Source: Botryllus schlosseri
Taxonomy: Eukaryota
Assembly: GCA_051294905.1 (NCBI GenBank)
Contig: CM119371.1
Coordinates: 17,672,001 to 17,736,000 of the forward strand
Reading direction: 5' to 3'
Length of the DNA: 64,000 nt
Shown here: positions 15,701-51,485 of the stretch, one piece after another
Numbering within the stretch: position 1 is the stretch's first letter
Layout of the letters: each line of letters opens with the position of its first letter
Program-made: the position numbers and the translations under genes
Notes under the pieces: model-generated
The model's database searches: none
Told to the model about the DNA's origin: nothing
The model's input: only the letters and a program-made list of their open reading frames with translations

Positions 15701-17018
15701 ACCGTTGGGATGAACTAGTGTAGGGGTGGGCAACGATCGAGTTCAGGCCTATGAGACTCATTCATTTCGAGGCTGACCTCTTCCGCCTCGGGGCACATGA
15801 ATACGTAAAGTTTGGCCAACAAACCGCTGATAAAATGTGGTGCCAAAAACATAAGCGGCGACAAAACTTTAGTCTAAAGATGACCGATGCTAAATGGCTA
15901 AGTCTTTCGAGATGGCTTGGTATGCTCCGTTGTCGGCACGGAATAGTCCCGTTCTAGCAATCTGAGTAGACGCAGTAGTAAAACGGCGACACGCAAAGGA
16001 CTTAAGTTGCCCTAATTTGAAATTGCGTGCGTCGGACGTGTTTTGAGAGCTGTGTTGGGTAAGATTGTGGTGTGCGCGATCTGTATGTCATATATGCCCG
16101 TAACATCATAGCATACAACCATAACATTAAAATGAATTCCTTTTCATGGGTTAGGCTAGGGTCGCGAGATGCCACAAAACTCAGATTTTGGTGGTAGTCT
16201 AAAAGCTGCTTTATCGTTATTATACTGTTATGAATTCTCAAGTTAGATTGAGCTAATGACTCGAACACACAGTGACACAGTATCGTGAGTTTATTTTTTC
16301 TTCTCATATACCCGCGAGACAGAAGTTGGAGCAACGTATGAACATATCATGAGGTACAGAGCTATAATGTGCCTACTCTCTTTCATCGTTTTTCATCTTT
16401 TGTTCCAAGACATAAGGCCAAAGCCTCAACACAAACATGTGGGTTTTTCATTCTTTCGACAAACTGGAGCCTCCGGGGCCTTTGTGTCCGCTCTCAAAAA
16501 CGATTTCTGCCAACAAGCATTTTTCACTCGTGAAAGATACGCTGTATTTTGGATATGAGTGTTGAATAGATTTTAAGGCCTGAGAGACGTTTTTGTACAA
16601 AACCCAACAACAGTGCTTGGTCGAGAAGGGTTTTAGTGAATAGTTGAAAGTAAAACGAGCGATTGCCTTTTTATTGACACACCTGATAGCTTAAGCTACA
16701 TAGTAGCCAATTTATTGCACATCTGTAAAAAATGTTAAGTATCGTCATCTTCTTTTTGTATCACAATTTTCGATTGGTTTGTGCGAATGAAATTTATTTT
16801 ACAAAAAAATGCAAATGGAGCTCAAAAAGGTTTAAAAGCACTCTTCTAACGGAATGATAAGTTGGTGTCATTTAAATTTTGAAATCCGTCAAATAAGTTG
16901 CGTGAATTTTTGAAGCACTACTTGACTGTTTTTGTTGTTGCTGGATGCAATTTAAACAGCGATTTTAACTCAATGGTTTTGTTCACTAGGCTGTAATATA
17001 TATCCATTGTATTTGGCT

Positions 17019-31800: not shown

Positions 31801-33464
31801 ATGAAAAACAGATACACATTCGGCCTGTTCAAAAACAAAGAAAGAGTAACAACTTACCGTATCGCCTGCGACGGATACCTATTCGGCTGGAAAAGAAAAC
31901 AAAAAAATATACTAGGACACAAAACTGGAAAACCTGCTATAACATCATGCAGACAATGTGGATGCAAAAAAGAGACACTAGACCAGGGGTGGGCAAACTA
32001 CGGCCCGCGGGCCGCATGCGGCCCTCCACACCGTTTTGTGCGGCCCGCGAGAGTCTAAAGAAACTTTTCAAAAATATTGATAAATTGCGTACTAAAAATC
32101 GAATTAATGCAGAGACTTGATTAACTTTTTCTTAGTATATTTTACCATGATAATTCTAAAACAGTGGTTCTGAAACGGGTGAGCACGCGCCCCTTTGGGG
32201 CGTGAAAGCACCTGAAGGGGGGCGCGATACTGAACTCAAGAGAAAAAATTTTTCGCGCTAAGCGCAATTTACATCCAATTCGTAGTTATATTGCTCGGTA
32301 TTTAGTCTGAATTACATATTTTAAAATCTCTCATTCACAGTCGTAACCTTCCATCCCATCAAACTACCCGTTAGGTGTGCTAGCATCCTGGTTGCGTTTT
32401 GTGATATGACGATAAGGGGGCGCGAAATCTTTCATTTTCATAAGGGGGAGGGGTCGTGTCTTAGAAAGTTTGAGAACCACTGATCTAAGGTAAATACCTA
32501 ATATCATAGCGGAATAGCTGCAACGAGATTGGCATAATTTGGATCACGACTGAGATTTCAGATTGGTCACTCCCTTTTTAATTATTTCAGTGATGTGCCT
32601 ATAAAAACGATACGGGCGTGTCTTAAGTAGATTCGTTGTCTGTATGCGTAGAATTGAGGTATTTATATTTTATCTACACATAGTAGAAGCGTGTTTGAAG
32701 CTAACATGGTTATGATGCAGTCAGCATTGTGTATCCTGGAACTGCACCAAAAGTGGAATTTGTAAATCTATGAACAAATCTCTGCTCACAGATTTAAATT
32801 TCAATCCTGTTCTAAGAATCGGGTCAACCGACTTTCATCTCTGTAGTTTTGACAAATTGGTGATTAAGGTTCGCCAGCCTATGAAATCTCGCCAATATAG
32901 TACTTAATATATATATGTTTCTGGCGCGTGTACGATATCATCAAAGCAATGCTTGGTTTGTTTTAAATATGTACATATATTATCTCCATGTCCTCACTAT
33001 ATAAATCAAATATCAATATTGCGTTTTGGTTTATAATCCCAATTTTATATAGTGCGGCCCGCGAATGGATTCAGATGTTGAATGCGGCCCGCGAGCTCAA
33101 AAGTTTGCCCACCCCTGCACTAGACCATATCCTATATACATGCCCATCTGCTCGTAGGATACTTGATCGGCTAGAAGAAACCCTGAGACAAGCGACGGGA
33201 GTTAAGACATCCCTAAGCGGAACGCTCCTTGCAGGAAAGAACTGGGACAAAAACAACCTCGCCACGAAATTCCTCTTGACCTTATATAAAGAAAGAGTAA
33301 TACAAAATCGAATCATCCTGGAAGTGGAGAATGAAATGGAAAGCGACACAACCGAGTACGTAAACGCCACAACCAAACGCATCCTGAACACGGCAAGATC
33401 AAGACTCCGCCTAAGAGGACAACTTACAATGATTCTAGATAGACTCCGGATCATACTAGCGTAA
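28834..33464 (+). CDS. LINE ORF2 (APE endonuclease - RT - C-terminal CCHC finger), interrupted by MITE; reconstituted 28834-31983 + 33126-33464 = 1162 aa
   Basis: APE motifs (SINVNG, CVQEVH, NIYAP, AGDFN, RIDR, SDH) and RT motifs (KSPGPDG, WRPISL, DQEKAFD, GLRQGCPLS, YADD). The finger CRQCGCKKETLD|HILYTC rejoins in frame once the MITE and one TSD copy are removed. Confidence 0.93.
31984..33117. mobile_element. hAT-Charlie-type MITE inserted in LINE ORF2
   Basis: Perfect 16-bp TIRs CAGGGGTGGGCAAACT / AGTTTGCCCACCCCTG. 8-bp TSD CACTAGAC (31976-31983, 33118-33125). GGCCCGCG subterminal motifs. Confidence 0.95.
32162..32482. mobile_element. Older Charlie-type MITE nested within the 31984-33117 MITE
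   Basis: TIRs CAGTGGTTCTGAAAC / GTTTGAGAACCACTG; degenerate TSD TTCTAAAA / ATCTAAGG. Confidence 0.7.
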
Positions 33465-33999
33465 TGCTCACCATCCTCCCCCCCCCCGTGCATATATGTA
33501 TATGCCGGGCCCATGAAACCATAAAGAGACCATTATGTTTTATGTAAATATGGGTATGTGCACATGTATGTATGTATGCGTATATATGTCCAAATATGTG
33601 TATGTGTATATATCTGTATGTGTATGTTATGGGGAAGCAATGATGAAAACTGCCAGAACAGACTATAACCTGCTGAAACAGGTGTAATGCGAGCGAACCG
33701 AGAACCAAACTAGCCTGATCCCAAGAGGATAATGGCATGTCTAATGGCAACTACTGAGCTTCAAGTAAAAAAAAAAAAGACGTCATAATAGCCAATTTCG
33801 GAACACCAAACCCCCCCCCCCTTTTTCGCGCTCTGGATACGCGCCTGGATTCAACCCGTCTTCAAACCGATGGTTTCAACTAAAGAACAAACCCACAGCG
33901 GTTTCCGATCCGAGCCTCGTATCATTGAATGGCTCAGTATATTGTGTCAGAGGTAAAGGACCAGATTGCGTCAGTAGTATATAGGATCGGTCGTGATGC

Positions 34000-34330
34000 G
34001 CCATGGGGTTCTTATGGGCCCCGCTGGTGACTCGTATTGAAAACTCGTGTTGGTGACTCGTACTTTTAGACCCCCCTCCCGCTCGTGACTCGTAATGGGT
34101 TCTTATGGGCGCGGCGGTGACTCGTACTTTCGGGTATAGGCTGCGGCGATGACTCGTATTGAAAACTCGTGTTGGTGACTCGTATTTTCAGGTATAGGCG
34201 GTGTTGGTGAGTCGTATTTCATGTATTCTTACAGGGTCTCTGCTGATTCACCATGTGTTCTTAAGGGTGCGGTCGCATGCGGCTATTGCGTCTTATGGGT
34301 GCGGTCGTGATTCGTACTTTCAGGCATCTC
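34000..34330 (+). repeat. Subterminal array of TGACTCGTA and TTCTTATGGG motifs (mirrored at ~48140-48470)
   Basis: About eight TGACTCGTA-like and four TCTTATGGG-like motifs; the block TGACTCGTATTGAAAACTCGTGTTGGTGACTCGTA occurs twice. Confidence 0.85.
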
Positions 34331-37300
34331 TCGCGCGGTGTTGAATAGTCACCAACAATAACCGCGCAAACGGAAACGTGGCTTGCAAGAGGATTTACGC
34401 AGTGCGTGCGACAGACGGCGATTCGAATATCAACAATAACTGCGTTCGCAAACTAACACTTCAAAAAGATGTGAAATATTTGTAAAATCCTACGATCGCT
34501 CACAAGATACCACTTCCGGCATATCGATCTATCACTCAATACACAACCGAAGTTGAATTATAATTGAATGCGTAAATTTATCACCTCGGCATCAAAATTC
34601 GAAAACAACAACTTGATGCTTTATGTTCTCACTCTAATTTCATGATAAGTGTAATAAGTGTCGAATAACAGATACACCACCGGCGAGACTTGGATACCAA
34701 CAAATTGTCACTTATTTCTATTCCAACCGTAATCCTTTGTGAAGTTAACGCTTATTCAAAAAGGTGTGAAATATTTGCAAAACCCCGCGATCACTGACAA
34801 GATAATATCTCGGACATAACCATCTTTCACGACTTGGTGTCATAACCATACCGATCGCTCACGCGGTGAAATTTTAGTAATCAGTTTGTCACAGAACTTG
34901 ATTTCGCTGGTAAGATTTAACAAGTAACGAATAACAGACCGCGGTAACTTGAATAGCGACAAATTGTCACTTATTTCCGCTCTAACCCTAATCCTCTGTG
35001 AAGTGAACGCTTATTCAAAAGGGTGTGATATAATTTTAAAATCCAACAACCACTCACCGGATAATGCTTCAGACATAACAATCCCTCATGTCCGCTCACA
35101 AGGTAATATTTCGGTAATTAGTTTGTCCCAGAACCGTCGCAGACAGTGATTCGAAAACCAACAATTTGTCACTTGCCCGCGATCGCTATATGTTTCACAC
35201 CTCTCGAATAGTCGCTGACTTTAGTTGCGTGATAAGATCCATGAAAATATTCAATCAATGTGTTAGTTTGTCAATTCGAAATGAAACTTACTACACAAAC
35301 CAAGTTGATTCGTATCTGAATGTGTTAATTCGGTACAACTCTAAATATTTTGAGAAATCTTTTCGTGATCTTTTGATTCGACCATTACTGACACCGACTT
35401 TCAGCCACATCGAATTATTTGCACATTCCACGCCGCTGTTTTCACACTTATAGAATCAATACCAACTATAATTCTACAAGAATCAAGAATCACAAGTATG
35501 TGCATTATACAGTTATTGTCTTTATCAACACGAAATCAAACTCTTAACAAAAACACACATCTTATCACTCGTCAACTCTATCATGAAAATCATCGAGTCC
35601 TTATCATCAAAAATGTTATAGTGCGGCGTCGGAATCCATTCGCGGGGTGTACTAAAGTTAAATCCAGATAATCCAAAACGAAATATTTGGACTTTACCAT
35701 AGTGTGAATTGAAATAGGATTGACAAACATGACTGCCAACTTTGATCCAGCCACATTTCAAGATTATACTTTGAAACTAGTAATGTAACATTACAACTCT
35801 ATTCATGACCCCGCTTTCCGTTTGTCAAAGAGATATTTTAACATCTTACCATACTCAAAAGAATTATTCACAACATTAACAATTGTTAAAAATCTAGCTT
35901 CACTTACTTGATTATATCACTACAACTCACAAATTTGAATTAATTCATCCTGGATGTATTCGTATGATCGGTCTTTTTTTTATTCGATTGTAAAGGTTGT
36001 TACTATTCTGAAGACAAAGTATTTACTAATCGGTGCATATACGATTTGACTTGGACATATTATATTTTGAGTATACGAGATTTGAATGTCTGAACAATAA
36101 CTGAGAATTAATTTATCACAATTAAATCCGTATATTACAGCGTAAAAGATATTGGGGTGTCAGCAACTCTGTACGGTCGTAGTTACAACCATATTAACTA
36201 ATCTACCCAGGCAACTCGTCATGATCATTCCTGAAATCAACACAAACACGACTACTGACTTGAGTTAACCGCGAAACAGCATCAAGTTTTAAATCCGCTT
36301 GCAGCTGACGGATTATTCGAATGCATCGATGGAGAATATTATTGAACTCGTCGGTATTGTCACTTCAACAAATTACACCGACTGCGAAAGTTAATATCGA
36401 ATGGTAAGACTTGATCACATATTTGTTGATCACAGACATGACAAAAAAAAACATTACCGAGATTTTATAAACTAGTCATATTACTCTACACATCTATCAA
36501 TATCAAAATGCGAGTCATCCAATTTTTCTACTAAAGTAACATTGAGATTTCGGATTCGGATTCGGTATAGTCATACAAATAGTATTAAATCCAGCATCAA
36601 AACAAAAGGAATTTTTTTTTTTAGTTTATTGAAATCAAATCATTCGTCTTCGACTTGTGCTTTTCTAGATTACCCGCGACAATTCGTTTCGAGCGAGTTG
36701 TAACCAAAGTCAAGATATCTTTGTGTCCACAGATATGGAAGATGAATATAGCTAACACAATCACGAATCGACGTTTCAGAGTATTTCACGGGTGTAATAA
36801 ACTTGTTAGTGTCGCCTATCTAAAAGTACCCACGCGTTCGATTTCCATACCGACTGTTGCGATGTTTAGGATTCACTTACAATAACCACGGGTGAGGATT
36901 TAACATCAATGTCGTTACTGTCGGAATTTGCGACAGAGAATTGAAACATATGCACTTTACAGAGTGTGAAAATATCACTTTGAGTATCGAGTACCGTTCG
37001 AAGCTAGCGATCAATTCTTAATCATTTCAGTAACTCCCCATTGTGCATGCTAAATGTAAAATATCGCGAGGTTATACACTCTAAGACTTTGATTATTGTA
37101 AAAGTAAATTGTGATATGTTTGTTAGATGCATCCAATTCAATTAGAAGTGTCTAGTACCCAACACTCGTAATATCAAAAAAGTACTTGCTACACTGTAAT
37201 TCACTTAACGTGTTTTACATTGTTGTTCATTTGTAGTATTGATTGTTTTTGAACCTCCAAATAATAATTCCCGACATGAAACCAAACCACTGAAAGTCGT

Positions 37301-39489
37301 TACCATCACAACGAAACAATTTGTACGATGTTTACCAAATGTATCCCATAGTTAGGTGTACTAGAATCACTGGTCCAACACATACACCGACAATGCAATC
37401 GAAATTTTCCCCATTGTCATTCGTCAAAGTAAAGGTCGTCACAATACTCAACCCATAAAAGATCTTACTTGTATGTGATTGAATCGCAGGTAATTAACCC
37501 ACTAAATCAAACCATAAGGAAATTTCACTCACTCATCGGATATGAAACAGCGTCACTTAATCGGCGTGGATCGTTTTACTAAATGCAAATCATACCTGAC
37601 CAACAGAAAACAATTTTCACTCACCTTGTAATGAAACCAAGTGGTGGGCCTTCGTTCAATATTTTGTCTGTGTCAAATACTTTGTAATATACACAATGGA
37701 GTGGTTGAGCTTTACATCATCAAGCTGTCATTAATAAATCAAGATTTCGGTAAACTTGTAAATGTATCGTTTAACTAACCGAGTTGTATGCACAGTTTGA
37801 TATTTTTGTCATTTAGTGATTGCTGAACATACCACTTCGAAATACTGCGTTGATCTCAATTCCCTTTGTCCTGATAATCGAAGTACTTTTGTTTTGAATT
37901 CATAACAATCGGCTTTTCTATGACATGATAAATTAGAAGATTTAGAAGATTGGTTGCATATCACTAAAAATAAGATACCACACATATTATTACTGTTACT
38001 CCATTCATCGGTATTTTTTCCGTTGTCGATTTTCAAACGAGTAAAATTTATTACTTGAGTTGCTCTGCTTACTATATTTAAATGTAAACTCACCCGTCTT
38101 TCAACAACAAACAATGTTAAAAAAGTATGCAATCAAACACAACAAGTTTTACGATACTAATTATTATCCCACATAACCCATTTCTTACCGAAGACATATG
38201 AAATATATTCATGTTACACGAAAATATTCGCTCATGCTACAAACCTGTACAATGATTGGTGGTGCTTTCAAACTGTTTCGATACCTCAAGAACTTTATTG
38301 TCTGAATGGTTGTTCATGTATCGTAATAATCAAGTAGTTCAACACAGAACTAGTATTAACAGAAACACCAGAGTTGTTTACACAAAAGTTTGTATGTGTA
38401 CAGTATGCGAATACCATGTGCAAGTCCAGCACAGTTGTGGTATCCATACGAGTTTAGTTAACACAATTTACGACACCGAGGTCGCCTCATCTTTCGTAAG
38501 ACAACAAACCAAGGCTTCAGGATATGTCCATGTCATAACAATAAATCAGCTACTCCAACAACAGAGTACATATGTTTTCTAGTTACGGTGCTTACATCTT
38601 ACACACAAATCGGCCTACTTTGCTAACGAAAAGCGCTGAGTCATCACATGGTTATCCTCACAACAATACAACTAAAACATACTATCATACAAATTGGTCG
38701 TTATAGTTTACCCACCAACGATACATCGTACAAGTAGCAAGTCTCGAGAATCCAGTTATTCAAAAAACGTGAAAGTGTTTCTACACCAAGTCGGTATGTT
38801 GACGAAAGCATATATTGTAATATCATGATCGATTTACATTCGTTGGTCACAAACCGCCACTAGTCTAAATAATTATTTTTCACTCAAACACAAACGCATA
38901 CTTGTCACCAATCGTTTTCATCAAGCACGAGTTCAAGAAACCTGCTACGACATGAATTCTGATTTAGTTTTACAAATATTTTATAATTGTTTTTTATTAA
39001 CACTATATCAATGTCATCAAGTTGAGTGTTTACGATATTAGTGTGTAGGTGTGTGTGTCATACTTGGAGGATCCGTATTACAATTGACTCGAATTGACTA
39101 AATGTAAGAAGGGTTGAAATGTTTCGAATCGATTCATAAGTGGTCTTCGTTGTGGTTTTCGTCGGACATACAGCACGAACTAACTGTAGACTCCTCTCTG
39201 TTGTGCAGCTACTCGGTAATCGAAATGCATTAACATGTAAACAACGATCTTGTTTCGTCACACCAAAAATATGTTCACTATCGCGATACTCTGCACAAGA
39301 CGTGCATAGCCTTTTCACACTCGTAATAGTATACCAACGTCAAGCGATATCGTTTAACAAGACCAACGACACTGAACCCACGACGTTTACCTATGTAAAA
39401 TTACCACTTTCACTTGTCAGTCCATCGTTTACCTGACTAAACATATTATTTTCCTTTGGAGATCTGACGTTTACCCAGAGTAAGAAACC

Positions 39490-39742
39490 ATTTTCACTTG
39501 TAAATATATTTTTTCCTTGGCTAACTAACCTTTTTTCACTTGTAAATATATTTTTTCCTTGGCTAACAAACCTTTTTTCACTTGGAAATATATTTTTTCT
39601 CTGGGTAACAAACCTTTTTCACTTGGAAATATATTTTTTCTCCGGTTAACAAACCTTTTTCACTTGGAAATATATTTTTTCTCTGGCTAACAAACCTTTT
39701 TTCACTTGGAAATATATTTTTTCTCTGGTTAACAAACCTTTT
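39490..39742 (+). repeat. 41-42 bp minisatellite, 6 units (left arm)
   Basis: Unit TTTTCACTTGGAAATATATTTTTTCTCTGGCTAACAAACCT with degenerate flanking copies out to ~39990. Confidence 0.92.
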
Positions 39743-41669
39743 CCCCTAAGCAACAAACCATTTTCACATGGTGGTCCGTCGTTTAGCCGAGTAAAAATAT
39801 TATTTTCCTTTGGAGATCTGGCGTTTACCCAGTGTAACAATGCATTTTCACTTGGAAAAATACTTTTACCTAGAGTAACTAATCATTTTCTCCTGGGTAA
39901 CAATCCCTTTTCGTCTGGAAACTATCATTTAACTGAGTACCAATACCGTTTTCACTTGGAAATACATTTTTTCCCTGGGTAACAATACCATTTTCGTTTT
40001 GAAAACTGACAACCACACCGGCCAATTTGATATTTTTGTATATTGTTACAACGAACAGTGACGGAAATATACACAGACTACCGGTTTCAGAGTATACCCA
40101 TCGGCCGTATCACATCAATATCATCGGTTAACCACATACAATATGCTCTTGTACACCGAAATGCACGCTTTGGAAAATTGGACAATAGGCTTCGATAGTT
40201 CTGTGATTTCCGGGTTCGTGCTTTGGATTTTCCAGAGTCAAAATGTCTGAATAAAACACCTCCTCGACGATGGTTGGTATGTGGATAACGGGGTTCGGAA
40301 AACGGTTGGATTTATGTCACCCATCGCGATAACAATTCCTGGTCGAGTTTTCTCCCACATGTTTACTATATTGTGTCTTTATTGGTCAATGTATGTCTCG
40401 ACATTCAGTTTGAAATCGGAAATGATAAAGTATGTAACCGGATCCGGATATCAACTCTGAATCGATAAACCAATGAACAATATTCAAAGTAAACATGTTA
40501 CACCCTGTGTTTCCACGAAAAAATACCATCCAGACATACGTCGCGCTTGTTTGCCCTACCAGTATACGCGTAAATGGAGGTGTGTGACATTGCATGCAAT
40601 GTGTTGGTATACAAACATCGATCCACAGACATTATCATAGCCGGTAGTTTTGATGTAGATCGAATGTCACCTGATAACAATGTCATACCAATAAGCCACA
40701 TTGCAATGACTCTGAGTTAATCTGAAGCGCGACATACAGACACACAAACATCGAACCGTAACATGGGTTATTCGCACAACGGTGAAAGTGAATTATACAG
40801 CATATATCAATAGAGCGTTCACAGTCAAATATGCGAACCATGCACAATCATATACCCAGATTTTTGTTGGATATGTACGAAACCGATAAATCGATACATT
40901 TCTTTTCCTTTGACGTCAATAATACAAAAGTCATTCCAATTCATCGCTCGAATGTGAGGTTCTTCAGGTGTAAAATCCATGTCAAATAACACCAAAGTGT
41001 GCCTTCCGTGTTTTATTATTTCCACCGTCGCATCTTGTCTGTGTCGTAACACTATGGTGCAGGGACTTGAAAAACGGTACTTTGTAAAACGGATTGACAT
41101 GTTCTTCGATATGACCAACTGAATCGACGTCAATAGCCTTGTGGTGATGACAGTTTCAAAATGCTCCGATATGACGAGACCAACCCCGATCTCGCGTGCT
41201 GACGACCGTTTTTTGTAATGTTACCGGACGAACTGGACAAACCCTTACGGGGGGTGTGTTTTATGATTGCGTGTGAAATCACGAGGTAGTGTTCTATTGT
41301 GGTGTACGATTGCAGTCTTCACAGAAACACACCTTATTGGATCACAGTATCAGTCCGAGATTTTCAGAATCACTGTTCACGATATTTATCTGGAGTCGTT
41401 ATGTGGGAGTAGCGACATCCATTCGTCGTGACTGAAAGACTGATCCCAATCATTTCGAGCACCGTACTTCGATAGTTCACATTGGTCAAACGCTGTAGTC
41501 TCAGCAGAAAACTTCGGTGTCGACAACACGACGGATATCGACCGATGTATCCAATTGGTCTGGGTGATCTGTCTGGAGATAGGGTCATGACTATCTTGTG
41601 ATGTTACAACGCGATAACACCATCGAGTAAATCAGCGAACGGTGTCGAAATATCGATGTAATAGCGCGG

Positions 41670-44600
41670 ACTCAGAGTCATTGCAATGTGGCTTATTGGT
41701 ATGACATTGTTATCAGGTGACATTCGATCTACATCAAAACTACCGGCTATGATAATGTCTGTGGATCGATGTTTGTATACCAACACATTGCATGCAATGT
41801 CACACACCTCCATTTACGCGTATACTGGTAGGGCAAACAAGCGCGACGTATGTCTGGATGGTATTTTTTCGTGGAAACACAGGGTGTAACATGTTTACTT
41901 TGAATATTGTTCATTGGTTTATCGATTCAGAGTTGATATCCGGATCCGGTTACATACTTTATCATTTCCGATTTCAAACTGAATGTCGAGACATACATTG
42001 ACCAATAAAGACACAATATAGTAAACATGTGGGAGAAAACTCGACCAGGAATTGTTATCGCGATGGGTGACATAAATCCAACCGTTTTCCGAACCCCGTT
42101 ATCCACATACCAACCATCGTCGAGGAGGTGTTTTATTCAGACATTTTGACTCTGGAAAATCCAAAGCACGAACCCGGAAATCACAGAACTATCGAAGCCT
42201 ATTGTCCAATTTTCCAAAGCGTGCATTTCGGTGTACAAGAGCATATTGTATGTGGTTAACCGATGATATTGATGTGATACGGCCGATGGGTATACTCTGA
42301 AACCGGTAGTCTGTGTATATTTCCGTCACTGTTCGTTGTAACAATATACAAAAATATCAAATTGGCCGGTGTGGTTGTCAGTTTTCAAAACGAAAATGGT
42401 ATTGTTACCCAGGGAAAAAATGTATTTCCAAGTGAAAACGGTATTGGTACTCAGTTAAATGATAGTTTCCAGACGAAAAGGGATTGTTACCCAGGAGAAA
42501 ATGATTAGTTACTCTAGGTAAAAGTATTTTTCCAAGTGAAAATGCATTGTTACACTGGGTAAACGCCAGATCTCCAAAGGAAAATAATATTTTTACTCGG
42601 CTAAACGACGGACCACCATGTGAAAATGGTTTGTTGCTTAGGGGAAAAGGTTTGTTAACCAGAGAAAAAATATATTTCCAAGTGAAAAAAGGTTTGTTAG
42701 CCAGAGAAAAAATATATTTCCAAGTGAAAAAGGTTTGTTAACCGGAGAAAAAATATATTTCCAAGTGAAAAAGGTTTGTTACCCAGAGAAAAAATATATT
42801 TCCAAGTGAAAAAAGGTTTGTTAGCCAGAGAAAAAATATATTTCCAAGTGAAAAAGGTTTGTTACCCAGAGAAAAAATATATTTCCAAGTGAAAAAAGGT
42901 TTGTTAGCCAAGGAAAAAATATATTTACAAGTGAAAAAAGGTTAGTTAGCCAAGGAAAAAATATATTTACAAGTGAAAATGGTTTCTTACTCTGGGTAAA
43001 CGTCAGATCTCCAAAGGAAAATAATATGTTTAGTCAGGTAAACGATGGACTGACAAGTGAAAGTGGTAATTTTACATAGGTAAACGTCGTGGGTTCAGTG
43101 TCGTTGGTCTTGTTAAACGATATCGCTTGACGTTGGTATACTATTACGAGTGTGAAAAGGCTATGCACGTCTTGTGCAGAGTATCGCGATAGTGAACATA
43201 TTTTTGGTGTGACGAAACAAGATCGTTGTTTACATGTTAATGCATTTCGATTACCGAGTAGCTGCACAACAGAGAGGAGTCTACAGTTAGTTCGTGCTGT
43301 ATGTCCGACGAAAACCACAACGAAGACCACTTATGAATCGATTCGAAACATTTCAACCCTTCTTACATTTAGTCAATTCGAGTCAATTGTAATACGGATC
43401 CTCCAAGTATGACACACACACCTACACACTAATATCGTAAACACTCAACTTGATGACATTGATATAGTGTTAATAAAAAACAATTATAAAATATTTGTAA
43501 AACTAAATCAGAATTCATGTCGTAGCAGGTTTCTTGAACTCGTGCTTGATGAAAACGATTGGTGACAAGTATGCGTTTGTGTTTGAGTGAAAAATAATTA
43601 TTTAGACTAGTGGCGGTTTGTGACCAACGAATGTAAATCGATCATGATATTACAATATATGCTTTCGTCAACATACCGACTTGGTGTAGAAACACTTTCA
43701 CGTTTTTTGAATAACTGGATTCTCGAGACTTGCTACTTGTACGATGTATCGTTGGTGGGTAAACTATAACGACCAATTTGTATGATAGTATGTTTTAGTT
43801 GTATTGTTGTGAGGATAACCATGTGATGACTCAGCGCTTTTCGTTAGCAAAGTAGGCCGATTTGTGTGTAAGATGTAAGCACCGTAACTAGAAAACATAT
43901 GTACTCTGTTGTTGGAGTAGCTGATTTATTGTTATGACATGGACATATCCTGAAGCCTTGGTTTGTTGTCTTACGAAAGATGAGGCGACCTCGGTGTCGT
44001 AAATTGTGTAAACTAAACTCGTATGGATACCACAACTGTGCTGGACTTGCACATGGTATTCGCATACTGTACACATACAAACTTTTGTGTAAACAACTCT
44101 GGTGTTTCTGTTAATACTAGTTCTGTGTTGAACTACTTGATTATTACGATACATGAACAACCATTCAGACAATAAAGTTCTTGAGGTATCGAAACAGTTT
44201 GAAAGCACCACCAATCATTGTACAGGTTTGTAGCATGAGCGAATATTTTCGTGTAACATGAATATATTTCATATGTCTTCGGTAAGAAATGGGTTATGTG
44301 GGATAATAATTAGTATCGTAAAACTTGTTGTGTTTGATTGCATACTTTTTTAACATTGTTTGTTGTTGAAAGACGGGTGAGTTTACATTTAAATATAGTA
44401 AGCAGAGCAACTCAAGTAATAAATTTTACTCGTTTGAAAATCGACAACGGAAAAAATACCGATGAATGGAGTAACAGTAATAATATGTGTGGTATCTTAT
44501 TTTTAGTGATATGCAACCAATCTTCTAAATCTTCTAATTTATCATGTCATAGAAAAGCCGATTGTTATGAATTCAAAACAAAAGTACTTCGATTATCAGG

Positions 44601-47600
44601 ACAAAGGGAATTGAGATCAACGCAGTATTTCGAAGTGGTATGTTCAGCAATCACTAAATGACAAAAATATCAAACTGTGCATACAACTCGGTTAGTTAAA
44701 CGATACATTTACAAGTTTACCGAAATCTTGATTTATTAATGACAGCTTGATGATGTAAAGCTCAACCACTCCATTGTGTATATTACAAAGTATTTGACAC
44801 AGACAAAATATTGAACGAAGGCCCACCACTTGGTTTCATTACAAGGTGAGTGAAAATTGTTTTCTGTTGGTCAGGTATGATTTGCATTTAGTAAAACGAT
44901 CCACGCCGATTAAGTGACGCTGTTTCATATCCGATGAGTGAGTGAAATTTCCTTATGGTTTGATTTAGTGGGTTAATTACCTGCGATTCAATCACATACA
45001 AGTAAGATCTTTTATGGGTTGAGTATTGTGACGACCTTTACTTTGACGAATGACAATGGGGAAAATTTCGATTGCATTGTCGGTGTATGTGTTGGACCAG
45101 TGATTCTAGTACACCTAACTATGGGATACATTTGGTAAACATCGTACAAATTGTTTCGTTGTGATGGTAACGACTTTCAGTGGTTTGGTTTCATGTCGGG
45201 AATTATTATTTGGAGGTTCAAAAACAATCAATACTACAAATGAACAACAATGTAAAACACGTTAAGTGAATTACAGTGTAGCAAGTACTTTTTTGATATT
45301 ACGAGTGTTGGGTACTAGACACTTCTAATTGAATTGGATGCATCTAACAAACATATCACAATTTACTTTTACAATAATCAAAGTCTTAGAGTGTATAACC
45401 TCGCGATATTTTACATTTAGCATGCACAATGGGGAGTTACTGAAATGATTAAGAATTGATCGCTAGCTTCGAACGGTACTCGATACTCAAAGTGATATTT
45501 TCACACTCTGTAAAGTGCATATGTTTCAATTCTCTGTCGCAAATTCCGACAGTAACGACATTGATGTTAAATCCTCACCCGTGGTTATTGTAAGTGAATC
45601 CTAAACATCGCAACAGTCGGCATGGAAATCGAACGCGTGGGTACTTTTAGATAGGCGACACTAACAAGTTTATTACACCCGTGAAATACTCTGAAACGTC
45701 GATTCGTGATTGTGTTAGCTATATTCATCTTCCATATCTGTGGACACAAAGATATCTTGACTTTGGTTACAACTCGCTCGAAACGAATTGTCGCGGGTAA
45801 TCTAGAAAAGCACAAGTCGAAGACGAATGATTTGATTTCAATAAACTAAAAAAAAAAAATTCCTTTTGTTTTGATGCTGGATTTAATACTATTTGTATGA
45901 CTATACCGAATCCGAATCCGAAATCTCAATGTTACTTTAGTAGAAAAATTGGATGACTCGCATTTTGATATTGATAGATGTGTAGAGTAATATGACTAGT
46001 TTATAAAATCTCGGTAATGTTTTTTTTTGTCATGTCTGTGATCAACAAATATGTGATCAAGTCTTACCATTCGATATTAACTTTCGCAGTCGGTGTAATT
46101 TGTTGAAGTGACAATACCGACGAGTTCAATAATATTCTCCATCGATGCATTCGAATAATCCGTCAGCTGCAAGCGGATTTAAAACTTGATGCTGTTTCGC
46201 GGTTAACTCAAGTCAGTAGTCGTGTTTGTGTTGATTTCAGGAATGATCATGACGAGTTGCCTGGGTAGATTAGTTAATGTGGTTGTAACTACGACCGTAC
46301 AGAGTTGCTGACACCCCAATATCTTTTACGCTGTAATATACGGATTTAATTGTGATAAATTAATTCTCAGTTATTGTTCAGACATTCAAATCTCGTATAC
46401 TCAAAATATAATATGTCCAAGTCAAATCGTATATGCACCGATTAGTAAATACTTTGTCTTCAGAATAGTAACAACCTTTACAATCGAATAAAAAAAAGAC
46501 CGATCATACGAATACATCCAGGATGAATTAATTCAAATTTGTGAGTTGTAGTGATATAATCAAGTAAGTGAAGCTAGATTTTTAACAATTGTTAATGTTG
46601 TGAATAATTCTTTTGAGTATGGTAAGATGTTAAAATATCTCTTTGACAAACGGAAAGCGGGGTCATGAATAGAGTTGTAATGTTACATTACTAGTTTCAA
46701 AGTATAATCTTGAAATGTGGCTGGATCAAAGTTGGTAGTCATGTTTGTCAATCCTATTTCAATTCACACTATGGTAAAGTCCAAATATTTCGTTTTGGAT
46801 TATCTGGATTTAACTTTAGTACACCCCGCGAATGGATTCCGACGCCGCACTATAACATTTTTGATGATAAGGACTCGATGATTTTCATGATAGAGTTGAC
46901 GAGTGTTAAGATGTGTGTTTTTGTTAAGAGTTTGATTTCGTGTTGATAAAGACAATAACTGTATAATGCACATACTTGTGATTCTTGATTCTTGTAGAAT
47001 TATAGTTGGTATTGATTCTATAAGTGTGAAAACAGCGGCGTGGAATGTGCGAATAATTCGATGTGGCTGAAAGTCGGTGTCAGTAATGGTCGAATCAAAA
47101 GATCACGAAAAGATTTCTCAAAATATTTAGAGTTGTACCGAATTAACACATTCAGATACGAATCAACTTGGTTTGTGTAGTAAGTTTCATTTCGAATTGA
47201 CAAACTAACACATTGATTGAATATTTTCATGGATCTTATCACGCAACTAAAGTCAGCGACTATTCGAGAGGTGTGAAACATATAGCGATCGCGGGCAAGT
47301 GACAAATTGTTGGTTTTCGAATCACTGTCTGCGACGGCTCTGGGACAAACTAATTACCGAAATATTACCTTGTGAGCGGACATGAGGGATTGTTATGTCT
47401 GAAGCATTATCCGGTGAGTGGTTGTTGGATTTTAAAATTATATCACACCCTTTTGAATAAGCGTTCACTTCACAGAGGATTAGGGTTAGAGCGGAAATAA
47501 GTGACAATTTGTCGCTATTCAAGTTACCGCGGTCTGTTATTCGTTACTTGTTAAATCTTACCAGCGAAATCAAGTTCTGTGACAAACTGATTACTAAAAT

Positions 47601-48498
47601 TTCACCGCGTGAGCGATCGGTATGGTTATGACACCAAGTCGTGAAAGATGGTTATGTCCGAGATATTATCTTGTCAGTGATCGCGGGGTTTTGCAAATAT
47701 TTCACACCTTTTTGAATAAGCGTTAACTTCACAAAGGATTACGGCTAGAATAGAAATAAGTGACAATTTGTTGGTATCCAAGTCTCGCCGGTGGTGTATC
47801 TGTTATTCGACACTTATTACACTTACCATGAAATTAGAGTGAGAACATAAAGCATCAAGTTGTTGTTTTCGAATTTTGATGCCGAGGTGATAAATTTACG
47901 CATTCAATTATAATTCAACTTCGGTTGTGTATTGAGTGATAGATCGATATGCCGGAAGTGGTATCTTGTGAGCGATCGTAGGATTTTACAAATATTTCAC
48001 ATCTTTTTGAAGTGTTAGTTTGCGAACGCAGTTATTGTTGATATTCGAATCGCCGTCTGTCGCACGCACTGCGTAAATCCTCTTGCAAGCCACGTTTCCG
48101 TTTGCGCGGTTATTGTTGGTGACTATTCAACACCGCGCGAGAGATGCCTGAAAGTACGAATCACGACCGCACCCATAAGACGCAATAGCCGCATGCGACC
48201 GCACCCATAAGAACACATGGTGAATCAGCAGAGACCCTGTAAGAATACATGAAATACGACTCACCAACACCGCCTATACCTGAAAATACGAGTCACCAAC
48301 ACGAGTTTTCAATACGAGTCATCGCCGCAGCCTATACCCGAAAGTACGAGTCACCGCCGCGCCCATAAGAACCCATTACGAGTCACGAGCGAGAGGGGGG
48401 TCTGAAAGTACGAGTCACCAACACGAGTTTTCAATACGAGTCACCAGCGGGGCCCATAAGAACCCCATGGCGCATCACGACCGATCCTATATACTACT
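41670..48498 (-). repeat. Right inverted arm (6829 bp)
   Basis: Reverse complement of 33973-40717; 84 bp longer (83 bp in the minisatellite, 1 bp in a homopolymer near 45850). Confidence 0.96.
42645..42980 (-). repeat. 41-42 bp minisatellite, 8 units (right arm)
   Basis: Reverse complement of the 39490-39742 array with two additional units. Confidence 0.92.
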
Positions 48499-51485
48499 TG
48501 CGTCGCAACTTCCTCATTCTGCAAATTTACTCCGTCCTCGTCAGAGTGGGTTGACCTCAAGCCAATGAGATATCCGAAGTGGGGCAGTGGTGTTCTCGCG
48601 TCTGGCCAGAAGATATTCGCGATCGGCGGCTGCACATTGCGGAAGAAATTGACAAATGTAGAGTGTTATGATGTCACGTCGTCTCAGTGGACTTCACTGT
48701 CGCATATGAATAATTGTCATGGTTGGAATACTGCCATGCGCGTTGGCAGCTGGATATTTTCCGTACCAGTGTTTAAGTCTATGTCTTCTGATCCAATTGA
48801 GAAGTATGATTTACTAAACGACACATGGCAGAGTAACGAATTACGTGTAGATCAATGTAGAACTTACGTGGCCATGCTCGTATCGCAGTAGACTTTGCAG
48901 TTCTTTAATAACATCAACAAATATTGATGATGCATTTTAGTCCTTTCTTGTTGTTTTGTGAGTTTAACAGTCCGTGATCATGATCACCATACCCGTATAC
49001 TAGTGCTTCGTGTTACTAGCCTTCGGTAAATCTGTCTGTGTATTCAATTATAGGCTCCCTAACCAATTTTTAAGGAAATTATGACCTCGTTACTGATGCG
49101 TTCAACCCAATACGCGTGTAACCCATCTTATTCCGGGTCGTAACAGATCGTTTACCACACTTTCTATACGATAAACGTCGTTTTTACACGGAGGTAAACC
49201 GACGACCTGCGAGAAATGCATTTTGTTATTCTCTCCACGTAGCATGAAAGCAGGCATTGAGGTGTCCTCCCAAGGCCACTGCGAGCGTAAGTTAAGTCAA
49301 TCTCACTGTTTGGAGTGCTAATGTCGCACAGTCACCATAATGATCACTTGCTTATGTGTAGAAAGCAGAAATTGACGCCTGGATTATTTGAACGATCTCA
49401 TGGTTCTGGCAAGCTTACTAAAGCGGGAAGCCACTGTCAAGTTGGATATTAAATTGATTGATGTTCGTTCTCTTGTTAGCGTTGATATTCGTTGGTACGT
49501 GCTTTCATGCTTTAATATTTTCGTTATCATCGAGGGTGATCATAAATAGACATGGGGAACAACTGATTTTGACCTGGATGCGTTCAACAAAATGCGCGTG
49601 AAACACATCCTATTCCGGGGCCGTAACCGATCGTTTACCGTCCCTTCTATATGATAAACGTAGTTTTTCCTCATACGTAACCCGATGACCTGAGAAAACG
49701 CAGCGGTAACGTGCCCTTTCGTTATCATTTCAACGTCACATGACAGCGTATGTAGGTATTGGGGTGTGGTGCCCGTCAATACAGTGTTGAACGCGATACA
49801 TAAGGACCCCCACTGTGTGCTATACGTTTAAATGAATATCTTTACTCATTACCGCCACCTAGTGCGGAGTGGTAAAGTGGGTGCACAACTGAAGTAGACG
49901 ATATAAACTGGTGCTTATTATTATTATTAATTGATAAAAATCGTGTTTAGCTGCTTATACAATGAAAGTCTTTTGCACCATAAACTGGTAATCGATTGTG
50001 ATTACATAGGAGGAAAGAAAAATAAGTGGACATAAATTCCGTTGTAATTAACAATGCCTCTCGTATAGTTGAGCAATGAACAGCAGTGAACCTTTTCTCT
50101 ACGACCAACTTGATACACATATTTCAAGTTACCAGACTTGCACAAACTACTGGATTTTCGGAATGTGTGACTAGAATTAGAATTTAAAATAAAACTAATG
50201 AACCCTTCAAATTTAGCGATAAACTAACCTAAACACAACTATGACACCCGATAATACGAATTACTGAAGTGTAAATGCACATTTATATAAATACATGTAA
50301 CCAGGGGGTATGTGTATTAGACCCCTAATAGCTGATAAGGGTTTTCATAAATTTTGTAAAGTACCATAAAACATTATGAATAAAATAGTATTTACGGTGA
50401 CCAATTCTAATAATTATTTATTATAGTGGTGCCCACCGTAAATATTATTTTATGCAAGTCCAAATTTTTCGACGGCAATAACTCCGCTTCTAATGGTCGA
50501 AATTCAACCAAATTTGGTGAACATCGTTTCTATAGACAACCTAACACTTTGATGGGATGAACAGAAAATTTTCGAATTTTGGGGTATTTATTTTTATATA
50601 ATAAATAGAAACTTTCTTCTCCTGTAGCAATGCGGCTACTGGTTCGCTGGCGCTCACATTGGGAACAACTGCAGTAGGTCAACAACATATTGAGCAATGG
50701 TTCAATAAAGGTACTTGGCGGAGAAAAGATGTATGAGAAAGAATTGTTCCATACCAGCATTCGATCAATAGCTTTCGAAGATACCCGCTTCCGCTTCCGC
50801 CTGCGATATCAGGAACATCAGTTTTGGGATAATATGTTAATAGGTCTGTGTATATTGATCTTGATAAATTTTTTGGCTCACTTGAGGTATAAGAAGAACA
50901 TTTAATCACATTACAAATATTTGTGGAATACAATATACATGTGTATATCACTTTTTAGATCCCAGGACGTGACTGTCGTGTAGTCTATAATGAAGAGTAG
51001 CTTCCGGAATATCGCGTAATAAGATTAAATACGCGCATAAATGTGGTGTCATATTATCATTATCTTCCATCTTCCTTGATACACAAAAACAATATTTGTA
51101 GTGTGTTTGCTACAGGTTGTGATATTGAACACCAAACATTTACACTCCGACATCTGTTCCTTCCTATTCCAATTATGAGTAAAAATGTTTGCAAGTTGTT
51201 CGTTTCCTATGTGAAACTATCAAAATATAGATATAGCAAAGAAGAGTCTTAAGTCTGATAATGAGTTAAGAATCCCTTATTGGAGAAGTGCCACCACTTG
51301 TGCAGAAGTGCTGTTTCTGGTGATTGGCGGTACGATATAGAATATCACTCGAAATTGAATTTTCGTTTGTTGTATATTTTCAAATGCTATGAGTCGCTAT
51401 GACACCATCAATCCGGAAAATGAGGGAGACTTTCGAGAACATTTCGAAATTGTAACTGGGTTTAGTGAAGTCAGTTAGGTCTATC

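What the first reader, a model, noticed from the sequence alone, without database searches (positions are those of the whole stretch)
33973..48498. 14.5 kb palindromic, gene-less element with Maverick/Polinton ends: candidate copy-back defective virus-like transposon
Seen: the insertion interrupts the Kelch gene with a 6-bp TSD (TGCGTC) and begins AGTAGT / ends ACTACT. About 93% of it is two inverted arms (6745 and 6829 bp) around a 952-bp spacer. The longest ORF in the track is 108 aa, and none resembles pPolB, retroviral-type integrase, packaging ATPase, protease or capsid. Established: Mavericks/Polintons make 6-bp TSDs, have 5'-AG...CT-3' ends with short terminal repeats linked to protein-primed replication, and usually have TIRs of a few hundred bp to ~1 kb in 15-20 kb elements. 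Inference: this is a non-autonomous element mobilised in trans, with TIRs about ten times the usual length. Its structure matches copy-back/snap-back defective viral genomes. Its length near that of an autonomous Maverick may reflect packaging-size selection, i.e. a satellite or defective-interfering parasite of an endogenous virus. Transcription across it would give kilobases of dsRNA that could silence the helper.
Basis: partly seen in the sequence, partly recalled or inferred. Interest (0 to 1): 0.92.

Follow-up and report, generated by a model that had tools for sequence, protein, structure and literature searches.

The report
Palindromic gene-less Maverick satellite family
This 14.5-kb insertion in a Kelch gene is one recent copy of a very abundant family of gene-less, mirror-image DNA elements that borrow the ends of virus-like Maverick transposons in the same genome, and their shape hints at how Mavericks copy and perhaps package their DNA.

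Summary
Window 33973-48498 is a 14,526-bp insertion with AGTAGT...ACTACT ends and a 6-bp duplication (TGCGTC). It has two near-identical inverted arms (6745 and 6829 bp) and a 952-bp spacer. It is not an assembly artefact: contigs of two DNA runs carry the exact empty site.

Ten elements read end to end share the design: arms of 4.7-6.6 kb with 0-4.5 mismatches per kb, and 6-bp duplications. First-look counts suggest about 1000 copies.

No Maverick gene or Pfam domain is present. The outer ~245 bp are 88-93% identical to the ends of intact Mavericks that encode pPolB, integrase-chromodomain and a packaging ATPase.

Copies with nearly the same centre carry two different end types, each also found on pPolB-bearing Mavericks, and the two ends of one copy always match.

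Best reading: a helper-dependent Maverick satellite whose arms are re-copied from each other during protein-primed replication. That step is inferred. Size selection by a capsid is plausible but untested. The idea that its RNA silences the helper is not supported.

The parts
33967..33972 (.). left copy of the 6-bp target-site duplication TGCGTC
   Evidence: the empty-site joint holds a single copy
33973..48498 (.). whole palindromic non-autonomous element (14,526 bp), AGTAGT...ACTACT ends
   Evidence: family members
33973..34216 (+). terminal ~244 bp shared with the inverted repeats of autonomous Mavericks (about 90% to the element at G000:C4:15128927-15143965); starts with the 3-nt tandem AGTAGT
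34027..34316 (+). array of 8 subterminal GTGACTCGTA-like motifs, spaced 26 or 32 bp apart except the last (100 bp); the mirror array is at 48155-48444
   Evidence: 16 of 21 window hits lie in the two ends, 3.0 expected in shuffles; 6-11 copies in the other type-A ends, 10 in the autonomous element
33973..40717 (+). left arm (6745 bp), non-coding
39491..39742 (+). 42-bp tandem repeat, 6 copies (left arm)
40718..41669 (.). unique 952-bp spacer, the family's conserved centre with conserved boundaries
40825..41100 (-). 91-codon frame (plus stop) inside the spacer, open in 8 of 8 copies but without a coding signature
41670..48498 (-). right arm (6829 bp), mirror image of the left arm
42645..42979 (-). 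42-bp tandem repeat, 8 copies (right arm)
48499..48504 (.). right copy of the target-site duplication TGCGTC
33838..33972 (+). left half of the interrupted host exon (same reading frame as the right half)
48499..48888 (+). right half of the interrupted host exon, Kelch_1 motif
   Evidence: E 1.7e-13

Best explanation
The insertion is a young, still polymorphic copy of a large family of helper-dependent ("satellite") derivatives of Maverick/Polinton virus-like transposons. It codes for nothing. It keeps only the cis-acting ends of the Mavericks of the same genome: the AGTAGT terminal tandem repeat, about 245 bp of terminal repeat, and an array of subterminal motifs. It is inserted by their retroviral-type integrase, which makes the 6-bp duplication.

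Shown here:
- the family exists, and its ends are shared with intact Mavericks;
- the duplications are 6 bp, and an empty-site allele exists;
- the symmetry centre is inherited;
- the two arms of one copy are near-identical, while copies differ by 2-30%.

Inferred:
- Between excision and integration the element is copied as a free linear DNA by the helper's protein-primed polymerase.
- The displaced single strand snaps back into a 6-7 kb hairpin. Mismatched or missing 3' arm sequence is then re-copied from the 5' arm. This is the 'panhandle' homology-restoring step proposed for adenovirus and PRD1.
- That step would keep the arms identical. It would make any exchange of ends or outer arm segments symmetric. 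It would also sometimes create new palindromes from truncated arms.

More weakly inferred:
- The mirror-dimer design brings a roughly 7-kb unit up to 82-97% of helper length. This would suit packaging in the helper's capsid, as with undersized helper-dependent adenovirus vectors that are packaged as inverted dimers.
For: (1) Ends and duplications. All 12 elements read at both ends start AGTAGT and end ACTACT. Eleven of 12 have a perfect 6-bp duplication and one has 5 of 6.

(2) Helper. The element at G000:C4:15128927-15143965 is 15,039 bp with 600-bp inverted ends. It has a 1298-aa frame matching DNA_pol_B_2, an rve integrase with a chromodomain, and an A32-like ATPase. It probably also has a double-jelly-roll capsid protein (a lead only). 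It shares the terminal ~245 bp with the window element at about 90%. The pPolB search gave 50 scored hits, many with open ~1300-aa frames.

(3) Family. Ten full palindromes were read. Three of 3 sampled centres of further pairs are palindromic. Seventeen plus/minus pairs appear among the 40 scored inner-arm hits. First-look candidates number 1017 for the spacer and 2166 for the inner arm.

(4) The spacer boundaries are the same in 7 other copies.

(5) Arms differ by 0-4.5 mismatches per kb within a copy, against 2-30% between copies.

(6) Symmetric end swapping. C9c and C5a have centres 96-98% identical to the window copy, but their terminal 260 bp are only 67-73% identical and hold no GTGACTCGTA motif. 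That second end type also flanks pPolB-bearing elements of 16.1 and 16.4 kb.

(7) The old copy C5a has arms only 97.5% and 92.2% alike. So arms do decay in place.

(8) C13 has its symmetry axis at arm position ~4.6 kb with a 75-bp loop. This means mirror-image breakpoints.

(9) Empty-site allele in runs X1 and X5.

(10) Analogy from papers (passages read). Helper-dependent adenovirus genomes under 75% of wild-type length rearrange, and a 15-kb vector is packaged as direct and inverted dimers (PMC4189039). Panhandles are proposed for the displaced strands of adenovirus and PRD1, and for restoring homology (PMC11886824). A racket-shaped single-strand intermediate is proposed for Polintons (PMC4196379).
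Against: - No free linear, hairpin or encapsidated form was seen; none could be looked for here.
- Beyond the terminal 250-700 bp, the arms are not helper sequence. The family is therefore not a plain copy-back deletion of current Mavericks, and the origin of its 6 kb of arm sequence is unknown.
- Decay of arms in place rests on one copy (C5a). Gene conversion between arms in the chromosome could also homogenise master copies.
- The size cluster (9 of 10 at 82-97% of 15,039 bp after subtracting nested insertions) can be explained by common descent. C13 is only 63%.
- Copy numbers are first-look candidate counts, with only 40 scored per search.
- Assembly polishing could have exaggerated arm identity.
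- At least one related locus holds a 100-N gap at a symmetry centre. Not every palindromic locus in this assembly can therefore be trusted.
Confidence: 0.6

Rival explanations
1. It is the same Maverick-dependent, gene-less family, but with no replication or capsid step. The palindrome arose once in an ancestor. Copies move as double-stranded DNA through the helper integrase alone. Arms stay alike because the copies sampled are young and because master copies undergo arm-to-arm gene conversion in the chromosome, as in other large genomic palindromes.
For: The symmetry centre and spacer boundaries are inherited. Sizes are what descent from one ~13.7-kb ancestor would give. The samples are the best-scoring, hence youngest, relatives. 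No extrachromosomal form was observed.
Against: Copies with 96-98% identical centres carry two unrelated end types, always the same at both ends, and their outer arms are symmetric mosaics. Each such change would need an ectopic exchange followed by full conversion of several kb. C5a shows arms decaying in place without conversion. Nested insertions sit in one arm only in C9b, C12b and C12a. C13 needs mirror-image breakpoints.
Confidence: 0.27
2. It is a host- or element-selected hairpin-RNA locus. Transcription through the arms would give kilobases of double-stranded RNA, feeding small-RNA silencing of Mavericks.
For: The arms are perfect inverted repeats, so any read-through transcript could fold. 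A few reads of run X24 lie on the element in both directions.
Against: The arms have no similarity to any helper gene. Only pseudo-frames from the inverted-repeat region of the helper matched in tblastn, so the RNA could target the terminal repeats at most. Only 101 reads of about 12.9 million records read were laid; 96 lay only partly, and 93% ran on into unlike sequence. The insertion destroys a coding exon and is polymorphic, which is what a fresh parasite insertion looks like.
Confidence: 0.03
3. It is an assembly artefact: a fold-back chimeric long read or a mis-join created the second arm.
For: Palindromes are a known failure mode of long-read assembly. A related locus (G000:C2:3711000-3720999) has a 100-N gap exactly at a symmetry centre and 100.000% identical repeats.
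Against: Both junctions carry the same 6-bp duplication inside one Kelch exon. The empty site is exactly the element plus 6 bp. The arms differ by two tandem-repeat units. The unique spacer is shared with dozens of other loci. Ten other full copies show the same design with their own duplications. The window holds no N.
Confidence: 0.01

Closest known systems
Autonomous Maverick/Polinton elements (self-synthesising, virus-like DNA transposons)
   Same: 6-bp target duplication; 5'-AG...CT-3' ends with a short terminal tandem repeat (AGTAGT); about 245 bp of terminal repeat 88-93% identical to intact Mavericks of the same genome; similar overall length. The general features come from a passage in PMC4196379 and from PMC10748475.
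   Different: No pPolB, integrase, ATPase or capsid gene, or any other recognisable gene. The inverted arms are 6.7 kb against 0.6 kb in the helper, so 93% of the element is palindrome.
Inverted dimers of undersized helper-dependent ('gutless') adenovirus vectors, and long-inverted-repeat defective adenovirus genomes
   Same: A protein-primed linear replicon that keeps only its ends and depends on a helper. The mirror-image dimer brings the length close to that of the helper. PMC4189039 (passages) reports that genomes under ~75% of wild-type length rearrange, and that a 15-kb vector is packaged as direct and inverted dimers. The adenovirus packaging repeats lie 220-400 bp from the end (PMC5033970, passages). 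That is much the same place as the motif array here.
   Different: Those arise in cell culture and are not integrated. Here there is a unique 952-bp centre, the design is inherited, and copies are integrated hundreds of times in a germ line. The older adenovirus work (Daniell 1976) is recalled only, because the paper was not held.
Copy-back / snap-back defective viral genomes
   Same: Long complementary arms around a short loop. One member (C13) has a new symmetry axis, as expected from fold-back on a truncated arm.
   Different: The arms are not parental genome sequence. Interference with the helper is unknown. The classic cases are RNA viruses.
Foldback-type transposons and long-inverted-repeat non-autonomous DNA transposons
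   Same: Non-coding elements dominated by inverted arms.
   Different: The arms here are mostly unique sequence; only 252-335 bp are tandem repeat. The duplication is 6 bp and the ends are those of Mavericks. The 9-bp duplication of Drosophila FB elements is recalled, not checked.
Butterfly polintons with ~2-kb gene-bearing terminal inverted repeats (Pannagram preprint, 10.1101/2025.02.07.637071, passages)
   Same: Polintons whose inverted ends are much longer than usual.
   Different: Those repeats hold hexon and adenain genes and the elements are coding. Here the arms are 6.7 kb and gene-less.

Membership tests
Maverick/Polinton (autonomous) | [quoted passage not shown] | tested here: not met
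   Outside the inverted-repeat region, none of the 35 C4 frames of at least 80 aa matched any of the 12 other elements at E <= 0.01. No Pfam hit in 39 frames.
Maverick/Polinton (autonomous) | retroviral-type (rve) integrase gene | tested here: not met
   The helper has rve at E 2.2e-16 plus a chromodomain.
Maverick/Polinton (autonomous) | capsid, packaging ATPase and protease genes | tested here: not met
Maverick/Polinton (autonomous) | 6-bp target-site duplication | tested here: met
   TGCGTC on both sides. The empty site holds one copy.
Maverick/Polinton (autonomous) | terminal inverted repeats starting 5'-AG and ending CT-3', with a 1-3-nt terminal tandem repeat | tested here: met
   AGTAGT...ACTACT in 12 of 12 elements
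Non-autonomous Maverick derivative (mobilised in trans) | ends shared with an autonomous element of the same genome | tested here: met
   About 90% over 244 bp to the C4 element; 87-89% over 260 bp to three Maverick ends.
Non-autonomous Maverick derivative (mobilised in trans) | many copies at different loci, each with its own duplication of the same length | tested here: met
Non-autonomous Maverick derivative (mobilised in trans) | presence/absence polymorphism with a precise empty site | tested here: met
   The joint 33965>48498 skips 14,532 bases, in X1 and X5. The contigs are short (26 letters on the shorter side).
Non-autonomous Maverick derivative (mobilised in trans) | actual mobilisation by helper proteins | not testable with these tools
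   needs an experiment
Copy-back / snap-back defective genome of the helper | made of one end of the parental genome, duplicated in inverted orientation | tested here: not met
   Only the terminal 250-700 bp resemble the helper; the rest of the arm does not.
Copy-back / snap-back defective genome of the helper | complementary arms far longer than the parental terminal repeat | tested here: met
   6745 and 6829 bp against 600 bp
Copy-back / snap-back defective genome of the helper | generated by polymerase template switching; interferes with the helper | not testable with these tools
   Indirect only: the new symmetry axis in C13 and symmetric end swapping.
Foldback (FB-type) transposons | long inverted ends built mainly of tandem subrepeats; another duplication length | tested here: not met
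   Tandem repeats cover 252-335 bp of each 6.7-kb arm. The duplication is 6 bp.
Capsid-size-limited satellite (adenovirus inverted-dimer analogy) | length within the packaging range of the helper (75-105% in adenovirus) | tested here: inconclusive
   Nine of 10 palindromes are 82-97% of 15,039 bp after subtracting nested insertions; C13 is 63%. Descent explains this as well.
Capsid-size-limited satellite (adenovirus inverted-dimer analogy) | found inside particles | not testable with these tools
   no particle data

The most novel reading that the evidence does not exclude
The palindromes are true satellites of endogenous Maverick viruses. In this reading they are gene-less mirror-dimer genomes, replicated by the helper's protein-primed polymerase. 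They are kept symmetric by snap-back (panhandle) repair of the displaced strand, and they can swap ends between helper lineages. Their size is set to fit the helper's capsid. They outnumber their helpers, and make up perhaps about 3% of this genome. They would then be a natural fossil record of three things never shown directly for Mavericks: strand-displacement replication, panhandle homology restoration, and a capsid size limit acting on a transposon.
Probability: 0.35. Interest if true: 0.92.

Novelty: new variant of a known kind. Interest (0 to 1): 0.8.

Why it matters
How Mavericks/Polintons replicate has only been inferred from their genes; a free single-stranded 'racket' intermediate and protein priming remain models. 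A recent structural paper states that even for adenovirus and PRD1 direct evidence for panhandles is lacking (PMC11886824, passage).

A family of hundreds of integrated palindromes offers many natural replicates on which the models can be tested by plain sequence census. The useful properties are these:
- the arms are identical within a copy but diverged between copies;
- the two ends of a copy always match, even after switching between two helper lineages;
- some derivatives have mirror-image breakpoints.

It also shows that a non-coding parasite can outnumber the virus-like element it depends on. On the rough candidate counts (about 1000 centres of 13-14 kb in 495 Mb), it may fill a few percent of the genome. 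It is active now: this copy knocks out one allele of a Kelch-repeat gene.

Practically, such palindromes are hard to assemble and annotate and are likely to be missed or mis-joined in other genomes.

I found no paper describing palindromic non-autonomous Mavericks in four full-text searches. However, Kapitonov and Jurka 2006 was not held. Pritham et al. 2007 was not looked up, and repeat libraries such as Repbase could not be consulted.

Tried and rejected
- Rfam on the left arm and spacer: nothing at E <= 0.1.
- Pfam on 39 frames of at least 55 aa: only one chance-level hit (Endotoxin_C, E 0.0094, below the cut-off).
- A 91-codon frame in the spacer is open in 8 of 8 copies. However, pairwise dN/dS runs 0.3-2.4 (mostly 0.5-1.0) and differences are spread evenly over codon positions. 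It is rejected as a gene.
- RNA: no RNA holder was listed. In raw RNA run X24, 101 reads were laid from about 6% of the run. Of these, 96 lay only partly on the stretch and 93% ran on into unlike sequence. This does not settle expression.
- Scan of viral contigs for two GTGACTCGTA motifs 14-24 bp apart: one hit in a 61.5-kb contig, with no other similarity, so it is chance.
- Earlier findings of this scan: none.
- C2 was considered as a second case of a new symmetry axis and rejected. It is a one-sided deletion of the inner left arm plus the spacer.
- The zig-zag repeat at G000:C2:3711000-3720999 was considered as a natural alternating concatemer. It was set aside because a 100-N gap sits at its second centre and all repeats are 100.000% identical.
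[quoted passage not shown] What I say about them is recalled.
- No structure prediction or complex prediction was run.
Full report
**What is there**

The element spans window 33973-48498 (14,526 bp). It begins AGTAGTATATAGGATCGG and ends with the reverse complement of that string. TGCGTC lies on both sides.

The arms are 33973-40717 and 41670-48498. They are reported as 100% complementary over 2650 and 3062 nt, and 99% over the inner 1208 nt, around a 952-bp spacer. Their 84-bp length difference is two units of a 42-bp tandem repeat, with 6 copies on the left and 8 on the right.

Each terminal ~340 bp holds 8 copies of GTGACTCGTA (at most 1 mismatch). Seven of them are spaced 26 or 32 bp apart and the last follows after 100 bp. 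These account for 16 of the 21 hits in the window, against 3.0 expected and at most 7 in 100 shuffles.

The left flank's reading frame continues into 48499-48888, which is a Kelch_1 motif (E 1.7e-13). A Kelch coding exon is therefore split.

**It is a real and recent insertion**

I laid four public runs on window 33400-49100. Contigs of X1 and of X5, two different samples, join 33965 to 48498.

- The joint skips 14,532 = 14,526 + 6 bases, with 7 letters fitting either side. This is the exact empty site with one TGCGTC.
- The contigs are short, with 26 letters on the shorter side. X1 may be the sample that was assembled.
- The third DNA run, X6, is labelled as a different organism. It did not show the joint and barely covers the flanks. 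It does hold contigs 95-99% like the element, including the spacer, so the family exists there as well.
- The window contains no N.

**It is one of a large family**

The first 400 bp found 92 places in the window's own 495.5-Mb genome. There were 2352 first-look candidates, of which 40 were scored, and many hits lie as plus/minus pairs 9-29 kb apart.

I read ten such pairs in full and two more loci found through the spacer. Self-comparison gave these results:

| Class | Elements | Features |
|---|---|---|
| Long palindromes | WIN, C9c, C8, C3, C9b, C12b, C9a, C2, C13, C12a | 4693-6627 aligned arm bases, 0.00-4.53 mismatches per kb, spacers of 75-1137 bp |
| Old palindrome | C5a | arms only 97.5% (inner 2 kb) and 92.2% (outer 2 kb) alike, with extra insertions |
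| Gene-less, not palindromic | C7 | 14.3 kb, with the same ends |
| Coding | C4 | an autonomous Maverick (see below) |

All 12 elements read at both ends start AGTAGT and end ACTACT. Eleven of 12 have a perfect 6-bp duplication, all different, and C9a has 5 of 6.

Further searches of the same genome:

- The 952-bp spacer gave 1017 first-look candidates. Forty candidates were scored: 37 hits besides the query's own place span the whole spacer at 86-98% identity, and three are partial.
- A 708-bp inner-arm probe gave 2166 candidates. Among the 40 scored there are 17 plus/minus pairs, the window's own included, around spacers of 597-955 bp (one of 4293 bp). Arm scores within a pair are equal or within 17 bits. 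Six hits are unpaired within the top 40. Two of these pairs may be assembly duplicates.

The 1:2 ratio of candidate counts fits about 1000 centres. These are rough counts, not copy numbers. The summed contig depth over the element is a few hundred to about a thousand times that of the flanks; the tool warns that this is not a copy number either.

**The helper**

C4 (G000:C4:15128927-15143965) is 15,039 bp with 600-bp inverted ends and the duplication TACATC. Its frames are as follows:

- A 1298-aa frame whose C-terminal part matches DNA_pol_B_2 (E 7e-6, just under the curated cut-off).
- An rve integrase (E 2.2e-16) with a chromodomain (E 2.2e-9).
- An A32-like NTPase.
- A 432-aa frame whose nearest Atlas clusters (score 0.98) carry the double-jelly-roll-like domain PF21738 in 14-30% of members. 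This is a lead only, because Pfam itself found nothing for this frame.

The pPolB search scored 50 of 331 candidates, and many have open frames of about 1300 aa.

The window element shares only its outer ~244 bp with C4, at about 90%, followed by weaker, shifted motif repeats. I ran all 35 C4 frames of at least 80 aa against the 12 other elements with tblastn. Only four pseudo-frames from the inverted-repeat region matched.

I also tested 39 frames of at least 55 aa from the arm and spacer against Pfam, and none gave a credible hit. Rfam found nothing. The family is therefore gene-less and keeps only Maverick ends.

I classified the 30 best terminus loci by the sequence just inside the end. 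This count includes the elements used to build the comparison set.

| Interior sequence | Loci |
|---|---|
| Palindrome-family arm | 22 |
| Maverick interior | 5 |
| Ends of C7 | 2 |
| No match | 1 |

**Family anatomy that bears on mechanism**

(a) *The centre is inherited.* The spacer aligns from position 1-2 to 952 in 7 other copies, exactly between their arms, at 84-98%. An eighth copy (C8) keeps only positions 645-952.

(b) *Arms evolve in concert.* Copies differ from the window copy by 2-30%, in patches, and every patch is mirrored in both arms. Within a copy the arms differ by at most 0.45%.

(c) *Ends are swapped, and symmetrically.*
- The identity matrix of the first 260 bp does not separate palindromes from Mavericks. 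For example, C3 and C9b are 92-93% identical to C4 but 85% to the window copy.
- C9c and C5a have centres 98% and 96% identical to the window copy. Yet their ends are only 67-73% identical to it and hold no GTGACTCGTA motif.
- This second end type has 1696 candidates in the genome. It also flanks two elements of 16.4 and 16.1 kb that enclose pPolB hits.
- Eleven further pairs with this end type are 12.7-14.5 kb long. The centres of 3 of the 3 I sampled are palindromic, and two of them have the family spacer.

(d) *Arms can decay in place.* C5a shows this. Nested insertions of about 1.5, 2.0 and 4.2 kb sit in one arm only in C9b, C12b and C12a.

(e) *C13 has a different symmetry axis.* In six of six comparisons, homology to other members stops at the same point, which corresponds to window arm position 4633. 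About 27 bp of unrelated stem and a 75-bp loop follow. The two breakpoints are therefore mirror images.

(f) *Some deletions end at the arm-spacer junction.* This is seen in two copies, C8 and C2.

**How it most likely works**

Shown: it is a non-autonomous Maverick-dependent family that inserts with a 6-bp duplication and is active now.

Inferred, from established knowledge of protein-primed replicons:

1. The AGTAGT tandem trinucleotide matches the terminal repeat needed for slide-back initiation. The adenovirus CATCAT parallel is recalled. The 1-3-nt rule for Polintons comes from a passage of PMC4196379.
2. After initiation at one end, the displaced strand of a palindrome would snap back into a 6-7 kb hairpin.
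3. Panhandle models for adenovirus and PRD1 include restoration of homology between the ends (PMC11886824, passage).
4. Re-copying the 3' arm from the 5' arm would explain four findings in one step:
   - identical arms in copies of a diverged family;
   - symmetric mosaics;
   - symmetric end switching after a one-sided template switch onto another helper lineage;
   - new palindromes such as C13 arising from truncated strands.

The rival is arm-to-arm gene conversion in the chromosome plus the youth of the sampled copies. It explains (a) and the sizes. It needs several extra events for (c) and (e), and (d) speaks against it. I put the replication-coupled reading at about 0.6 and the rival at about 0.27.

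**Size**

After subtracting nested insertions, 9 of 10 palindromes measure 12.3-14.5 kb, which is 82-97% of the 15,039-bp helper. C13 is 63%.

Helper-dependent adenovirus genomes below about 75% of wild-type length rearrange towards that length, and a 15-kb vector is packaged as direct and inverted dimers (PMC4189039, passages). The adenovirus packaging repeats lie 220-400 bp from the end (PMC5033970, passages), much where the motif array lies here.

The analogy is close, but descent from one ancestor of about 13.7 kb explains the sizes equally well. I rate capsid size selection at about 0.35-0.4.

**What is not supported**

- The arms are not helper sequence, so this is not a plain copy-back deletion of present Mavericks. 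The origin of the arm sequence is unknown.
- Any double-stranded RNA from the arms could not target helper genes. The RNA run gave almost nothing.

**Known or new**

I ran four full-text searches for palindromic, copy-back or non-autonomous Mavericks/Polintons and read passages of the most relevant papers. They gave no description of such elements.

The nearest is a preprint reporting ~2-kb gene-bearing inverted ends in butterfly polintons. Kapitonov and Jurka 2006 was not held. I did not look up Pritham et al. 2007, and I could not consult repeat libraries such as Repbase.

I therefore file it as a new variant of a known kind: a non-autonomous Maverick with a palindromic, satellite-like genome.

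Noticed in passing
window 28834-32058 (+): A 1074-aa open frame just upstream of the Kelch exon. It is A-rich (AT skew 0.3-0.45 over 27-32 kb) and has a YADD-type motif in its translation. It looks like a non-LTR retrotransposon ORF2. It was not run against Pfam.
   Followed up: no
G000:C1:17643749-17645368 (about 27-28 kb upstream of the window start): Another centre of the same palindromic family: a plus/minus pair of inner arms at 96-97% identity around a 935-bp spacer.
   Followed up: no
L054 = G000:C2:3711000-3720999: A zig-zag of alternating arms with a 6454-bp period, all at 100.000% identity, and a 100-N gap exactly at the second symmetry centre. Probably a scaffold join inside a palindrome. 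It warns that this family is mis-assembled in places.
   Followed up: partly
G000:C8:27590337-27592694 and 27612546-27614903: Two family centres 22.2 kb apart with identical scores on all four arms. This is either a recent segmental duplication or an assembly duplicate.
   Followed up: no
L041+L042 = G000:C7:8261353-8275699: A 14.3-kb gene-less element with the same AGTAGT ends and the duplication CTTGTG that is not a palindrome. Its ends are 330-bp inverted repeats at 92.8%, and it has an internal 876-bp inverted repeat. Non-palindromic Maverick-dependent elements therefore exist too.
   Followed up: partly
L031+L032 (C12a), record positions about 13280-17436: A ~4.2-kb insertion in one arm of a palindrome, carrying open frames of 972 and 286 aa. 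Probably another mobile element; not characterised.
   Followed up: no
window 40825-41100 (-) and the same place in 7 other copies: A 91-codon frame starting MSIRF is open in 8 of 8 copies. This stretch is more conserved (90-99.6% nt) than the spacer as a whole (84-98%). However, dN/dS is about 0.5-1 and there is no third-position excess. A nucleotide-level constraint is possible.
   Followed up: yes
C8 (L039+L040) and C2 (L047+L048) centres: Two independent deletions each end within a few bases of the arm-spacer junction. This would be expected if the base of a hairpin or cruciform is a break hot spot. Only two cases.
   Followed up: partly
window 39491-39742 and 42645-42979; also C12a, C9b, C8, C12b: A 42-bp tandem repeat in the inner arm is conserved across the family. 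Its copy number differs between the two arms of the window copy, 6 against 8. Its role is unknown.
   Followed up: no
G000:C6:10548534-10577502 (L013, L014) and G000:C14:14372200-14394282 (L029, L030): Pairs of type-A ends 29 kb and 22 kb apart. The first has Maverick interior next to both ends, and the second has palindrome-family arms. These may be elements with large nested insertions or composites.
   Followed up: no
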